Source: Escherichia phage 235Ecol030PP
Length of the DNA: 64,000 bases
Sequence record: PP355091.1
Direction: 5' to 3' (one strand)
Shown: positions 6,899 to 49,277 of the stretch, piece after piece
How the letters are laid out: the number at the start of each line of letters is the position of its first letter
Position numbering within the stretch: position 1 is the first letter of the stretch
The notes under the pieces: model-generated
The model's input: only the letters and a program-made list of their open reading frames with translations
Told to the model about the DNA's origin: nothing
Databases searched by the model: none
Program-made: the position numbers and the translations under genes

Positions 6899-6974
6899 TG
6901 GTCGAGGCAGTAGGGATCGAACCTACGACCCAGGACTTAGAAGGTCCTTGCTCTTCCTTCTGAGCTATGCCCCG
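6899..6974 (-). tRNA. tRNA-Arg (anticodon UCU), CCA encoded
   Basis: cloverleaf read by hand; T-arm GTAGG-TTCGATC-CCTAC; anticodon loop CUUCUAA. Confidence 0.85.
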
Positions 6975-6977
6975 TAA

Positions 6978-7643
6978 TTAAAATTTCATTTTTCGACCTT
7001 TAAACCATCCTTCTGGAATTGGGTCAGTTTTCTTAATACGTTTAGAAACTTTTTCATCTAATGAATGAATCCACATCATACCAAATTGGGAATTCTTTTC
7101 GCCCTGTTGATGTTTATTTCTGGCGTGAGATTCTTTCATTTTATTAATAGTTTCAGGAGTATGATGCTTATTTAAAAATCTGCTATTATTTAAAAATTTT
7201 TCCCTGTATTCAGGAGTTGACCACAAGCGTTTAAATACATTTGAACCATGTTTACGATATTTTTCTTGAAGTAAAATATCATTTTTAAAACGTGACTTAA
7301 ACGATTTAGCTCCTTTTAAGCTAGCATCTTTCTTCTGGTTTAGCATCCCAGGAATATTTACATGATCCCATCCACCTTCACCACCAAGTTTTAAATTATA
7401 CACATCTGGTCTATTTAAAAACTCTTCTGTGACAATATTTTTCTCGGCTTCAAGCATAGATTCTTTATCGTCAAAGAACTCTAATATTTCTTTAGAAAAA
7501 TTTTCTATACCATACTTATCTTGGGCTCTTTTTAATAATTTACCAGAACCCATATATCCATCATCTAAATTTTCGGTAGAATGAGCGCCTATATAGATTT
7601 TATTATTAATTTTATTTGTTATTTTATAAATGTAATGGAACAT
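6978..7643 (-). mobile_element. segB: GIY-YIG homing endonuclease SegB within the tRNA cluster
   Basis: 221 aa; N-terminal YIYKITNKINNKIYIGAHS GIY-YIG motif; located between tRNA-Arg and tRNA-Ile as in T4. Confidence 0.85.
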
Positions 7644-7684
7644 AAATATCTCCTATTTCTAAGAGTATTTATGTTCTCAAAATA

Positions 7685-7756
7685 TGGCCCTGGGTGGAAT
7701 TGAACCACCATCTGGCGATTATGAGTCGCTTGCTTGAACCTTCCAGCTACAGGGCC
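7685..7756 (-). tRNA. tRNA-Ile (anticodon CAU; Met by anticodon alone)
   Basis: acceptor GGCCCTG/CAGGGCC, T-arm GGTGG-TTCAATT-CCACC, anticodon loop CUCAUAA. Confidence 0.8.
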
Positions 7757-7762
7757 TTGATA

Positions 7763-7835
7763 TGCTGATTGACGGAATCGAACCGCCGACGTCCTCATTA
7801 CAAGTGAGGTGCTCTACCTACTGAGCTAAATCAGC
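7763..7835 (-). tRNA. tRNA-Thr (anticodon UGU)
   Basis: D-arm GCTC-AGTAGGTA-GAGC, anticodon loop CUUGUAA, T-loop TTCGATT. Confidence 0.85.
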
Positions 7836-7842
7836 GAAATTA

Positions 7843-7929
7843 CGGAGGCGATAGGATTTGAACCTATGAGTCGCCGGAGCGACTGCCGGTTTTCAAGACC
7901 GGTGCATTAAACCACTCTGCCACGCCTCC
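7843..7929 (-). tRNA. tRNA-Ser (anticodon UGA), long variable arm
   Basis: acceptor GGAGGCG/CGCCTCC, anticodon loop CUUGAAA, T-loop TTCAAAT. Confidence 0.85.
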
Positions 7930-7931
7930 AG

Positions 7932-8005
7932 TCTCCGTGGCAGGATTTGAACCTACGACATTCTGCTCCCAAAGCAGACGCTCTACCAAACTGAGCTACA
8001 CGGAG
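7932..8005 (-). tRNA. tRNA-Pro (anticodon UGG)
   Basis: D-arm GCTC-AGTTTGGTA-GAGC, anticodon loop UUUGGGA. Confidence 0.85.
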
Positions 8006-8017
8006 TAAATTAAATTT

Positions 8018-8089
<72 letters not shown>

Positions 8090-8095
8090 AAACTT

Positions 8096-8182
8096 TGGTA
8101 CGAGAAGTGGGACTCGAACCCACAAGGAAATCATTCCGCAGCATTTTAAGTGCTGTGTCTTTACCAATTTGACCATTCTCGC
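8096..8182 (-). tRNA. tRNA-Leu (anticodon UAA), long variable arm, CCA encoded
   Basis: anticodon loop CUUAAAA, T-arm GTGGG-TTCGAGT-CCCAC, 3' ACCA. Confidence 0.85.
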
Positions 8183-8183
8183 G

Positions 8184-8256
8184 CTGGGAATAAAGGACTC
8201 GAACCTTTGCATCCTGGAATCAAAATCCAGTGCCTTACCAACTTGGCTAATTCCCA
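8184..8256 (-). tRNA. tRNA-Gln (anticodon UUG)
   Basis: acceptor TGGGAAT/ATTCCCA, anticodon loop UUUUGAU, T-loop TTCGAGT. Confidence 0.85.
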
Positions 8257-45005: not shown

Positions 45006-45074
45006 GTTATCGAGTTGGTGCCATTATATACATCATTTTCTGATTGTGTTTTGTGTGCTTTCAAAATGAAGAAA

Positions 45075-45088
45075 GGGGCCGAAGCCCC
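45075..45088 (-). terminator. rho-independent terminator after hoc
   Basis: minus RNA GGGGC-UUCG-GCCCC followed by U-rich tract. Confidence 0.65.
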
Positions 45089-45094
45089 TTATGA

Positions 45095-46513
45095 TTATGG
45101 ATAGGTATAGATGATACCAGTTTCTAAAGCAGTTTTATGAATGATGTATCCATTACGCGATTCTTGAACATCAACTTCTGGATAGTCTTTCATCATCTTC
45201 TGAAGAGTGTAACGATGCAGGTAGTATTTACTATCTGGATCTTCAGTTTTCCAATCTTTACCTTCTTCGGTCATTTTTTGGATTTCATCCATAACCCACC
45301 AACCGCACCAGATATAAGCTGAAGTACGGTGTGGAAGAGGATGAACATAAGGCAATTCACCTTTTGGTTCCGGAGCAACTTTATCAGTTACCTGAACTTG
45401 ACCTGTTGTTTTAACTGTTTTGCTATCATAGTCAGTTGCTGTAACGACAGCAGTAACTTCAATAGTTTGACTTCCAACAGATGAGGTATCGACAGTATAT
45501 ACGTTAGTTGACCCTTCTACAGGAGAAGAATCTTTCTTCCATGAGTAAGTAATTTGTGCTGCTTCAGGTGCGCCAGTAACATTAGCAGTAAATGTAGCCG
45601 AAGCATCTTTCTGAACGTTAATAGAAGGAGGAGTCAATGTAACCTGTGGATTCATTGTCTTCTTATTAACCGTTAATGATACTTCATTCGAAGTAACTTC
45701 CTTTTCATTGTAATTTTCTGCAGTTACTTGGGCTACGCATTTAATTCTTTTTACTCCACTTGTAGTTGGAGTATAGCTAAATGTAGAGTTAGTTTCTCCA
45801 CTAATTTGAGAATCATCTACATACCATTTATATGTAGCAGACGCTCCATCAGGTTGAGAAACTAAAGCAGCAGTAAATTGAACCGGGGTTCCAATTACTC
45901 CTGCTGGAGGACTATCAGGAGTTACTGCCAAAGTAGTTGTCTGCTCCTTTTTATTAACAGTCAGTGATACTTCATTAGAAGTAACGCTTAGTGCATCATA
46001 ATCTGTCGCGGTTACTTGAGCTACACACTTAATTTTTTTAACTCCGCTTGTGGCAGGAGTGTAATTGAATGTAGCGCTAGTTGCTTCGTCCACAGGAGAA
46101 CCGTCAACGTACCATTGATACGTAGCAGATGCACCTGATGGCTGTGAAGCTAAAGCAGCAGTAAATTCAATAGCTGTTCCGATTACTCCAGCGTCAGGGC
46201 TATTAGGAGTTACAGCTAAGGTAGTCGTTTGTGTCTTATTTTGAACTGTGATAGTTGTACTAATTTCAGCTGTTTCGGGACTACTATCGGCAACTTGATT
46301 TGTTGCAACTACTTTAATAGTCTTTTGACCGGCAGGTCCTTTTAATACATAATTAAAAGTTGCTGACGTTTCTTCCTGTTGAGCACCGTCTACAGTCCAA
46401 ACATATGTAATAGGTCCATCTCCAGTTTGACCACTGGGTGTAGCAGTAAACTGCTGAGTCTGATCTATAACTCCAGTAGGTGTTTTAGGAGTTATATCAA
46501 CTGTAAAAGCCAT
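45095..46513 (-). CDS. hoc: Hoc outer capsid decoration protein, four Ig-like domains
   Basis: 472 aa; N- and C-termini match T4 Hoc as recalled; two adjacent 96-aa Ig-like units are ~75% identical. Confidence 0.9.
   Translation of the reverse strand: MAFTVDITPKTPTGVIDQTQQFTATPSGQTGDGPITYVWTVDGAQQEETSATFNYVLKGPAGQKTIKVVATNQVADSSPETAEISTTITVQNKTQTTTLAVTPNSPDAGVIGTAIEFTAALASQPSGASATYQWYVDGSPVDEATSATFNYTPATSGVKKIKCVAQVTATDYDALSVTSNEVSLTVNKKEQTTTLAVTPDSPPAGVIGTPVQFTAALVSQPDGASATYKWYVDDSQISGETNSTFSYTPTTSGVKRIKCVAQVTAENYNEKEVTSNEVSLTVNKKTMNPQVTLTPPSINVQKDASATFTANVTGAPEAAQITYSWKKDSSPVEGSTNVYTVDTSSVGSQTIEVTAVVTATDYDSKTVKTTGQVQVTDKVAPEPKGELPYVHPLPHRTSAYIWCGWWVMDEIQKMTEEGKDWKTEDPDSKYYLHRYTLQKMMKDYPEVDVQESRNGYIIHKTALETGIIYTYP
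45653..46228 (-). repeat. tandem in-frame duplication (2 x 288 bp) encoding two Ig-like domains within hoc
   Basis: protein units aa 96-191 and 192-287 align throughout (TTTLAVTP...VKKIKCVAQVTA...EVSLTVNKK); DNA copies diverged. Confidence 0.75.
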
Positions 46514-46522
46514 AAGTTATCC

Positions 46523-47203
46523 TTATTTTAATGTTACGAAAGAAGAATTGCGTGTTTCACGAATTAGAACTGATCCGTCACGATTAATGTAGTAAATTAA
46601 GCTAAATAAAGTTTGGTGTGCTGACGCGTGTTCAAAACTAGTTGGATGAGATTTCCAATCAGGAGTTTCAGCGATCCATTGATAAATCCACCAAGGAACC
46701 GTACAGAATCCTGGATTTTTCCCCAATAATTGAAGATTCGGACTAAAGTTTTCCGGAAGAGTAAATACAGACGGCTTTTCAGATTCAATAATCTCAGCTA
46801 CAGCCTGTTCGAATTTTTCTTCAACAAAAGGAGTATCTTCAATCAAAACATCGGTATTTTCAGGAATTTTATCCGTTTCTACTACTTCAATTTTAATGTC
46901 AGATTTAACAGGAGAATCAATCAGAAGTGCTGCTTCTGGATTGACTTCTTCATCGTCATATTTTAACCCCTCTGCAGCATCAGCAGCATCAATTAAGTCT
47001 TTAATAGATAACCCATCAGTCTCTGGCATAGGTTCACTAGCGAGCTTCTGGAGGGCTTCTTCAATATCAGCAACGATATTATCAAAAGATTTATTCTTTT
47101 TGACCTTTATACCAAACTGTTCAGCGTATTCAGCTAATTTAGCTTTAGCTTCTTTGTTATCATCAAGAGCCTTCAGCTCTGCAATATAATCTTTATCTAT
47201 CAT
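46523..47203 (-). CDS. inh: Inh, inhibitor of prohead protease
   Basis: 226 aa, position between hoc and uvsW. Confidence 0.85.
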   Translation of the reverse strand: MIDKDYIAELKALDDNKEAKAKLAEYAEQFGIKVKKNKSFDNIVADIEEALQKLASEPMPETDGLSIKDLIDAADAAEGLKYDDEEVNPEAALLIDSPVKSDIKIEVVETDKIPENTDVLIEDTPFVEEKFEQAVAEIIESEKPSVFTLPENFSPNLQLLGKNPGFCTVPWWIYQWIAETPDWKSHPTSFEHASAHQTLFSLIYYINRDGSVLIRETRNSSFVTLK

Positions 47204-47216
47204 AATATTTCCTCAG

Positions 47217-47224
47217 TATAAATA
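47217..47224 (+). promoter_or_regulatory. late promoter TATAAATA upstream of uvsW
   Basis: exact TATAAATA about 30 nt upstream of ATG 47254. Confidence 0.55.
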
Positions 47225-49269: not shown

Positions 49270-49277
49270 TATTTATA
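49270..49277 (-). promoter_or_regulatory. late promoter TATAAATA, minus strand
   Basis: fwd TATTTATA, about 18 nt upstream of ATG 49245. Confidence 0.55.

What the first reader, a model, noticed from the sequence alone, without database searches (positions are those of the whole stretch)
45653..46228. Hoc carries four Ig-like domains through an in-frame tandem duplication
Hoc here is 472 aa against 376 aa for T4 Hoc as I recall it. The extra 96 aa are a second copy of the middle Ig-like domain, ~75% identical to its neighbour. Hoc decorates the capsid surface and is thought to mediate adherence to surfaces or mucus. Domain-number changes alter how far it projects and suggest repeat-mediated expansion and contraction.
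Basis: partly seen in the sequence, partly recalled or inferred. Interest (0 to 1): 0.5.

Follow-up and report, generated by a model that had tools for sequence, protein, structure and literature searches.

The report
Common four-Ig Hoc capsid fibre allele
This T4-like phage's capsid decoration protein Hoc does carry an extra immunoglobulin-like domain from an in-frame tandem duplication, but the duplication is old and about four in ten sequenced T4-like coliphages have the same 472-residue form, so it is an ordinary variant.

Summary
The extra 96 aa are a second copy of Ig-like domain 2: aa 95-190 and 191-286 are 72.9% identical in both nt and aa (z = 18 against shuffles). A structure model shows four confident beta-sandwich domains followed by the conserved capsid-binding domain.

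It is neither private nor recent. The two copies are near saturation at synonymous sites (pS 0.60, omega about 0.15), and their longest shared exact run is 18 nt. In a systematic sample of 57 T4-like records, 23 have four Ig domains, 31 have three, 2 have two and 1 has five.

DNA from eight other phages resolves three old paralogous unit types, a, b and c. They occur as D1+D3, D1+a, D1+b+D3 (T4), D1+a+b+D3 (this window, AR1), D1+a+c+D3 (ime09) and D1+a+b+c+D3 (UGKSEcP1). The order was never reversed in 120 protein clusters.

Variable Ig-domain number in Hoc homologues is already published. I found no paper describing the a/b/c unit series itself. Interest is low.

The parts
45095..46513 (-). 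hoc CDS, 472 aa plus stop (highly immunogenic outer capsid protein)
   Evidence: ORF list. phmmer to PDB T4 Hoc 5vf3_Z, E = 6e-211. 97.2% nt identity to the annotated hoc of Escherichia phage 310Ecol104PP.
46232..46513 (-). Ig-like domain 1 (aa 1-94)
   Evidence: AF2 beta-sandwich with pLDDT about 90 or higher. 70/94 identical to T4 D1.
45944..46231 (-). D2 unit 'a' (aa 95-190), first copy of the tandem pair
   Evidence: Groups with the first units of ime09, UGKSEcP1 and T4_ev151 (pS 0.21-0.27), against pS 0.49-0.60 to b-type units.
45656..45943 (-). D2 unit 'b' (aa 191-286), second copy; the unit closer to T4's single domain 2
   Evidence: 87.5% aa identity to T4 D2, against 82% for unit a. 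pS 0.25 to T4 D2 and 0.20 to AR1 unit 2. Pfam PKD PF00801 best stretch 195-267, 36.0 bits against a cut-off of 23.5.
45386..45655 (-). Ig-like domain 3 of T4 numbering (aa 287-376), the fourth Ig domain here
   Evidence: Pfam Ig_3 PF13927 at 289-355, 32.6 bits against a cut-off of 30. AF2 beta-sandwich. 79/90 identical to T4 D3.
45098..45385 (-). C-terminal capsid-binding domain (aa 377-472)
   Evidence: 91/96 identical to T4T Hoc 281-376. The function of this domain in T4 comes from the cryo-EM study PMC10385173. The AF2 confidence here is low.
45073..45090 (-). Intrinsic-terminator-like hairpin (AAGGGGC-TTCG-GCCCCTT plus a T-rich tail), 5 nt after the hoc stop codon
   Evidence: Terminator scan and sequence. 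The DalCa record annotates a rho-independent terminator at the equivalent place.
46514..46522 (-). 9-nt inh-hoc spacer holding the AAGGA ribosome-binding site
   Evidence: The sequence reads TAAAATAAGGATAACTTATG. No TATAAATA lies on the minus strand between hoc and inh. Co-transcription with inh is inferred.

Best explanation
The gene is a bona fide hoc. Its fibre part is D1 - D2a - D2b - D3, followed by the conserved capsid-binding domain. D2a and D2b are ancient tandem paralogues of the single domain 2 of T4 Hoc, and both are kept under purifying selection.

This a-b arrangement is one common state of a modular length polymorphism in T4-like coliphages. Two to five Ig domains occur, built from three old unit types a, b and c in fixed order. 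The states are interconverted rarely by in-register unequal or illegitimate recombination and patched by short gene-conversion tracts.

Inferred, not shown: each extra unit lengthens the fibre by about one Ig domain. T4's four-domain fibre is 180 A, so the increment would be roughly 45 A. Each unit also adds another copy of the conserved NEVSLT strand, which was reported to be needed for MUC2 binding in a related Hoc. Copy number would then change the reach, the valency and the antigenic surface of the capsid fibres.
For: Shown here.
- Architecture: the AF2 model has four beta-sandwich domains with pLDDT mostly above 90 at 1-93, 95-190, 191-286 and 287-376. The best Foldseek PDB matches are four-Ig chains (Dscam1 Ig1-4, Sidekick Ig1-4, ICAM-5 D1-D4), probability 1.0. 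Pfam PKD, Ig_3 and BiPBP_C score above their cut-offs. The C-terminal domain is 91/96 identical to T4.
- Age and constraint: pS 0.60, pN 0.16, omega about 0.15. Third codon positions are only 54% identical, and 33 of 70 conserved residues use different codons. 18 of the 26 amino-acid differences lie in loops.
- Shared descent: a-type units from five phages have pS 0.06-0.27 among themselves, b-type 0.20-0.33 and c-type 0.09-0.12. Between types pS is 0.36-0.63. The flanking D1 and D3+C parts have pS 0.04-0.24.
- Frequency: 23 of 57 systematically sampled T4-like records have the 4-Ig span, 31 the 3-Ig span, 2 the 2-Ig span and 1 the 5-Ig span (lengths confirmed for eight records). 472-aa protein clusters have up to 167 member sequences.
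- Order: 120 protein clusters give single units b 39, a 35 and c 5, and arrays a-b 24, a-b-c 4, a-b-b 3, a-c 3, b-c 1 plus one a-b with a weakly typed second unit. No reversed order was seen.
- Hybrids and junctions: phage 107 Hoc (P0091) switches from a to b right after FTAAL. That is the site of the longest exact a/b identity in the window (unit nt 64-81). The F2 and RPN187 deletions join at the conserved TVxNK/TDKV domain ends.

From the literature.
- Hoc homologues carry 1 to 10 Ig domains (PMC10385173).
- A Hoc lacking domain 3 binds MUC2 through N180-T185 of domain 2 (PMC11853027). That hexapeptide, NEVSLT, occurs at 180-185 and 276-281 here.
Against: - pS rests on only about 70 synonymous sites per unit (standard error about 0.06).
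- Flanking-domain pS may be lowered by recombination between phages, so 'older than the radiation' is a relative statement.
- A coarse site-painting of 79 single-unit alleles is messy: 49 complex, 9 single a>b, 4 single b>a. T4's own D2 is b-type over nt 1-216 but a-like over nt 217-288. That is the opposite polarity to a simple a x b deletion product.
- The 40% figure comes from 57 records of a redundant database.
- Nothing here measures fibre length, binding or antigenicity.
Confidence: 0.85

Rival explanations
1. A recent, private tandem duplication in this phage, acting as an actively slipping repeat that expands and contracts on short time scales.
For: The repeat is perfectly in frame and exactly one domain long. 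Copy number varies among T4-like phages.
Against: The copies are only 73% identical, with pS 0.60 and a longest exact run of 18 nt. The same a-b arrangement, with orthologous units, is present in AR1, 310Ecol104PP and many other records.
Confidence: 0.03
2. Allele stacking rather than in-situ duplication. Types a, b and c first diverged as alternative alleles of a single-unit domain 2 in different phage lineages. They were later concatenated by unequal recombination between co-infecting phages at the conserved domain ends.
For: Single-unit alleles of a, b and c type all exist. The record labelled Mosigvirus (RPN187) carries an a-type unit, whereas T4 carries a b-type unit. Unit ends (VTSNEVSLTVNKKT/QTTTLAVTP) are conserved and could serve as crossover sites.
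Against: The fixed a-b-c order with no reversed arrays in 120 clusters argues for one or very few founding events. After that, the two models predict the same data. The DalCa-type allele has a D2 equidistant from a, b and c (52-54% aa). That places their split within one allele lineage.
Confidence: 0.25
3. The multi-unit array is the ancestral state in Tequatrovirus. T4's 376-aa Hoc is a derived contraction, so relative to T4 the window did not gain a domain; T4 lost one.
For: Paralogue divergence (pS 0.36-0.63) exceeds allele divergence of the flanking domains (0.04-0.24). Single units come in a, b, c and hybrid forms, including a>b hybrids of the polarity expected from deletion (P0091, P0090, P0043). 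Two-Ig forms with clean domain-boundary junctions show that deletions do occur.
Against: T4's D2 has b>a polarity. The painting analysis is dominated by complex mosaics. No outgroup was analysed.
Confidence: 0.4
4. An assembly or annotation artefact that duplicates a segment of hoc.
For: None beyond the general fact that tandem repeats can be mis-assembled.
Against: Copies differing at 27% of positions cannot be collapsed or duplicated reads. The ORF is intact. Hundreds of independent genomes and metagenomic contigs contain the same 1419-nt gene.
Confidence: 0.01

Closest known systems
T4 Hoc (376 aa; PDB 5vf3 chain Z; cryo-EM/AlphaFold model in PMC10385173)
   Same: Same gene position. D1 is 70/94, D3 79/90 and the capsid-binding domain 91/96 identical. 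Unit b is 87.5% identical to T4 D2.
   Different: T4 has one D2 unit (b-type with an a-like 3' patch). The window has a + b, so four Ig domains instead of three.
472/474-aa Hoc of deposited Tequatroviruses (310Ecol104PP, AR1, vB_EcoM_G4507 and others)
   Same: Same D1-a-b-D3-C architecture. Nucleotide identity is 92-97% over the full 1419 nt among the closest records, and these genes are annotated as Hoc, Hoc-like head decoration or PKD domain protein.
   Different: Only allelic point differences. No record in the collection matches above 97.2%.
ime09 Hoc (472 aa) and UGKSEcP1 / T4_ev151 Hoc (568 aa)
   Same: Same unit family and the same flanking domains.
   Different: ime09 is a + c. UGKSEcP1 and T4_ev151 are a + b + c, with five Ig domains.
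Two-Ig Hoc variants: phage F2 (280 aa), RPN187 (283 aa), and the published PhiPNJ-9 Hoc 'lacking domain 3' (PMC11853027)
   Same: Same family, same C-terminal domain, and domain-boundary junctions.
   Different: These are contractions (D1+D3 or D1+D2) rather than an expansion.
Long Hoc homologues such as Serratia phage Muldoon (1174 aa, 10 Ig domains; PMC10385173)
   Same: A string of Ig-like domains on a conserved capsid-binding domain, with variable domain number.
   Different: Distant genera. The repeat history was not compared here.

Membership tests
Hoc (highly immunogenic outer capsid protein) of T4-like phages | C-terminal capsid-binding domain homologous to T4 Hoc residues 281-376 | tested here: met
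   91/96 identical to T4T. Full-length phmmer E = 6e-211 to 5vf3_Z.
Hoc (highly immunogenic outer capsid protein) of T4-like phages | N-terminal string of Ig-like domains | tested here: met
   AF2 model with four beta-sandwiches. Foldseek matches to four-Ig chains. Pfam PKD and Ig_3 above their cut-offs.
Hoc (highly immunogenic outer capsid protein) of T4-like phages | Conserved locus between inh and 24.3 in the head-gene region | tested here: met
   ORF order rnlB-24.2-24.3-hoc-inh | uvsW matches the annotated T4T locus.
Hoc (highly immunogenic outer capsid protein) of T4-like phages | One molecule bound at the centre of each gp23 hexamer; dispensable for growth | not testable with these tools
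   Needs virion proteomics or cryo-EM, and a knockout.
In-frame tandem domain duplication | Period equals one structural domain, is in frame, and the repeat boundaries coincide with domain boundaries | tested here: met
   Period 288 nt = 96 aa. The units 95-190 and 191-286 coincide with AF2 domains.
Recent or hypermutable repeat (slippage or contingency-type copy-number locus) | Near-identical copies offering long stretches of exact homology | tested here: not met
   73% identity, pS 0.60, longest exact run 18 nt.
Mucus-adhering Ig-like capsid decoration (BAM-type function) | Binding of mucin glycans by the Ig-like domains | not testable with these tools
   Only indirect evidence. The NEVSLT hexapeptide reported as essential for MUC2 binding in PhiPNJ-9 Hoc is present in both units, at aa 180-185 and 276-281.

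The most novel reading that the evidence does not exclude
The domain-2 region of Tequatrovirus hoc is an ordered array of three ancient paralogous cassettes (a, b, c). It is maintained across the genus as a presence/absence polymorphism giving 2-5 Ig domains. Recurrent in-register deletions and short conversion tracts generate the single-unit hybrids, including T4's own domain 2. Copy number would set the length of the fibre and the number of NEVSLT-type mucin-binding strands, so it would be a selectable 'reach and valency' dial for capsid adhesion or antibody evasion. I found no paper that describes this unit series.
Probability: 0.3. Interest if true: 0.4.

Novelty: already known. Interest (0 to 1): 0.2.

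Why it matters
Hoc is the protein used for T4 capsid display and is the proposed mediator of phage adherence to mucus. T4's three-Ig form is just one of several common natural lengths: 2, 3, 4 and 5 Ig domains built from defined a/b/c units. These natural variants can be used to test how fibre length and domain valency affect mucin binding, immunogenicity and display. For this particular window nothing new is implied. The gene is an ordinary allele of a class already present in hundreds of deposited genomes.

Tried and rejected
1. Recent or private duplication: rejected on synonymous divergence and on the same arrangement in many phages.
2. Megablast coverage as a proxy for domain number: unusable, because a single D2 aligns to both query copies. 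I used spans in the record instead.
3. Diagnostic-site painting of 79 single-unit alleles to infer the direction of change (deletion or duplication): inconclusive. Results were 49 complex, 16 pure b, 9 a>b, 4 b>a and 1 pure a. Several 'diagnostic' sites are polymorphic within both unit positions.
4. Test for diversifying selection in the variable loops: pN 0.39 is below pS 0.57 even in the hottest segments, so there is no evidence for pN > pS.
5. Four literature searches for an explicit description of the 472-aa form or the D2 duplication: none found. They returned only general statements on variable Ig number and the PNJ-9 domain-loss variant.
6. Search for a consensus T4 late promoter (TATAAATA) directly upstream of hoc or inh on the minus strand: none. 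The nearest on that strand is at 49270. The inh upstream region has only near-consensus AT-rich motifs. The promoter was left unassigned.
7. The AF2 model of the C-terminal domain has low confidence (pLDDT below 65), so it was not used. That domain's identity rests on sequence.

Full report
**What is there.** The window is part of a Tequatrovirus (T4-like) genome. A 24-kb stretch around the finding is about 97% identical to Escherichia phages KK4, vB_Eco_BGP, JEP6, vB_EcoM_F1 and RB27. The finding lies in the only long ORF of the region, 45095..46513 on the minus strand, which encodes 472 aa. It is flanked by inh (46523..47203, minus) and by 24.3, 24.2 and rnlB, with uvsW diverging on the plus strand. 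This is the gene order annotated in T4T.

The protein matches the PDB chain 'Highly immunogenic outer capsid protein' of T4 (5vf3_Z, 376 aa) with E = 6e-211. The match falls in two stretches, query 1-113 and query 191-472, so exactly one 96-residue block has no separate partner in T4.

**The repeat.**
- Tandem Repeats Finder reports 45659-46225, period 288, 2.0 copies, 75% matches.
- The ungapped repeat finder gives 45659-45946 against 45947-46234 at 73%.
- Cut at codons, unit a is aa 95-190 (window 45944..46231) and unit b is aa 191-286 (45656..45943). They are 72.9% identical at both nt and aa level.
- Shuffles give 26 +/- 2.6%, so z = 18. Self-identity at a 288-nt offset peaks exactly at aa 92-95.

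**Structure.** An AlphaFold2 model built on 35 homologues has four beta-sandwich domains at 1-93, 95-190, 191-286 and 287-376, with pLDDT mostly above 90. The C-terminal domain is modelled with low confidence. Foldseek against the PDB returns four-Ig chains first: Dscam1 Ig1-4, Sidekick Ig1-4 and ICAM-5 D1-D4, all at probability 1.0. TM-scores are low, as expected for flexible multi-domain chains. Pfam PKD, Ig_3 and BiPBP_C score above their cut-offs. The C-terminal 96 residues are 91/96 identical to T4's capsid-binding domain. The architecture is therefore four Ig-like domains plus the anchor, against three plus the anchor in T4. The T4 architecture is taken from PMC10385173.

**Age of the duplication.**
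- The two units differ at 46% of third codon positions.
- 33 of the 70 conserved residues use different codons.
- Nei-Gojobori estimates give pS = 0.60 (dS about 1.2), pN = 0.16 and omega about 0.15.
- The longest exact match between the units is 18 nt.
- Of the 26 amino-acid differences, 18 lie in loops. Even in the most variable segments pN (0.39) stays below pS (0.57).

Both copies are thus old and under purifying selection. This is not a fresh duplication or a slippage-prone repeat.

**How common it is.** Megablast of hoc finds 678 phage records. Coverage is misleading here, because a single D2 aligns to both query copies. I therefore used the span in the record for a systematic sample running down the whole ranking. 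Of 57 T4-like records:
- 23 have the four-Ig span;
- 31 have the three-Ig span (including T4T, T6 and RB55);
- 2 have a two-Ig span (F2, RPN187);
- 1 (slur14) is five-Ig.

In the protein database, the best 120 clusters have lengths of 376 aa (79 clusters), 472 aa (29) and 568/570 aa (8). Some 472-aa clusters hold up to 167 member sequences. RefSeq records such as AR1 (474 aa) and ime09 (472 aa) annotate these genes as Hoc-like head decoration. The closest hoc is that of phage 310Ecol104PP, at 97.2%.

**The unit series.** I fetched hoc DNA from eight other phages and cut it into units. Three paralogous types emerge.

| Comparison | pS |
|---|---|
| within a type | 0.06-0.27 among WIN, ime09, UGKSEcP1, T4_ev151; 0.27-0.45 to RPN187 and AR1 |
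| within b type | 0.20-0.33 |
| within c type | 0.09-0.12 |
| between types | 0.36-0.63 |
| flanking D1 and D3+C between phages | 0.04-0.24 |

The architectures found are:

| Phage | Length | Architecture |
|---|---|---|
| F2 | 280 aa | D1+D3+C |
| RPN187 | 283 aa | D1+a+C |
| T4 | 376 aa | D1+b+D3+C |
| this window, AR1 | 472 / 474 aa | D1+a+b+D3+C |
| ime09 | 472 aa | D1+a+c+D3+C |
| UGKSEcP1, T4_ev151 | 568 aa | D1+a+b+c+D3+C |

DalCa has a separate, strongly diverged four-Ig allele (471 aa). Its second domain is equidistant from a, b and c (52-54% aa). Its third domain is about 40% identical to every other domain, which points to an independent expansion.

I classified the units of 120 protein clusters by their central 30 residues. 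This gave single units b 39, a 35 and c 5, and arrays a-b 24, a-b-c 4, a-b-b 3, a-c 3 and b-c 1, plus one a-b array whose second unit was only weakly typed. No reversed order occurred.

Deletion junctions in F2 and RPN187 fall at the conserved domain-end motifs (TVxNKKT / VTDKV). Some three-Ig alleles are clean a>b hybrids. Phage 107 Hoc, for example, switches right after FTAAL, which is where the window's longest a/b identity lies.

T4's own D2 is b-type over nt 1-216 (19-24 mismatches to b, 50-54 to a). It is a-like over nt 217-288 (6-8 mismatches to a, 9-16 to b). This is best read as a short conversion patch.

A coarse site-painting of all single-unit alleles is dominated by complex mosaics and does not settle the direction of change.

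**Mechanism.**
- Shown: an intact, constrained five-domain Hoc with two old D2 paralogues, which is one state of a widespread modular length polymorphism.
- Inferred: rare in-register unequal or illegitimate recombination, plus conversion, interconverts the states.
- Inferred: each unit adds about one Ig length to a fibre that is 180 A for four domains in T4 (PMC10385173).
- Inferred: both units retain NEVSLT (aa 180-185 and 276-281). This hexapeptide's S183/L184/T185 were reported as essential for MUC2 binding in the PNJ-9 Hoc (PMC11853027). The four-Ig form might therefore be bivalent for that site. That report rests on mutating a beta-strand, which could simply unfold the domain, so I treat it as a lead only.

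**Expression context.** hoc starts 9 nt after the inh stop codon, behind an AAGGA ribosome-binding site. It ends 5 nt before a strong GC hairpin with a T-rich tail at 45090..45073. No consensus late promoter lies directly upstream on the minus strand.

**Comparison with what is known, and novelty.** Variable numbers of Ig domains in Hoc homologues (1 to 10) are published (PMC10385173). So is a two-Ig T4-like variant (PMC11853027). The 472-aa form has been in public genomes for years. I found no paper that spells out the a/b/c unit series or the D2 duplication in Tequatrovirus. That is a modest descriptive gap, not a surprise.

**Verdict.** The feature is already known, and interest is low (0.2).

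Noticed in passing
window 6899-8256 (minus strand): A cluster of eight tRNA genes (Arg-tct, Met/Ile-cat, Thr, Ser, Pro, Gly, Leu, Gln). A 221-aa ORF at 6978..7643 sits between tRNA-Arg and the other seven and matches the GIY-YIG nuclease domain (PF01541, 30.7 bits). From memory it resembles T4 segB, the homing endonuclease in the tRNA region.
   Followed up: partly
L004 (Escherichia phage DalCa, MH992510) 487-1902; also H116 LNA2 and H117 NRG-P0074: A second, strongly diverged hoc allele lineage in Tequatrovirus. It also has four Ig domains (471 aa). The Ig part is only 23-63% identical to the window's, while the C-terminal domain and flanking genes stay about 90% identical. Its third domain is about 40% identical to every other Hoc domain, which suggests an independent expansion.
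   Followed up: partly
related records H146 (FriedrichMiescher, MZ501066), H145 (NHEP10), H2 (vb_GEC_SH_GT), H13 (G29), H66 (UPWr_E2): In several four-Ig phages hoc is annotated as two ORFs ('Hoc part 1 / part 2', 'Hoc-like head decoration x2'). The FriedrichMiescher span is 1417 nt instead of 1419, which suggests a frameshift. This may be real pseudogenisation of a non-essential gene, or sequencing errors.
   Followed up: no
window, whole: The T4 late-promoter core TATAAATA occurs 25 times, against 9.5 +/- 3.1 expected. One copy at 47217-47224 (+) lies just upstream of uvsW. None is directly upstream of inh or hoc on the minus strand.
   Followed up: no
L002 (vB_EcoM-RPN187, OL770074): This record is labelled Mosigvirus, yet it carries a hoc locus 87% identical to the window's. 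Its Hoc has two Ig domains (D1 plus an a-type D2), the same architecture as the published PNJ-9 variant.
   Followed up: partly
records LR597660 (T4_ev151) and P0090 (T4_ev240): Two phages with sibling names ('T4_ev...') carry different hoc length classes: 568 aa (a-b-c) and 376 aa (an a>b hybrid unit). If they come from one evolution or recombination experiment, they could show copy-number change over short time scales. Their provenance was not checked.
   Followed up: no
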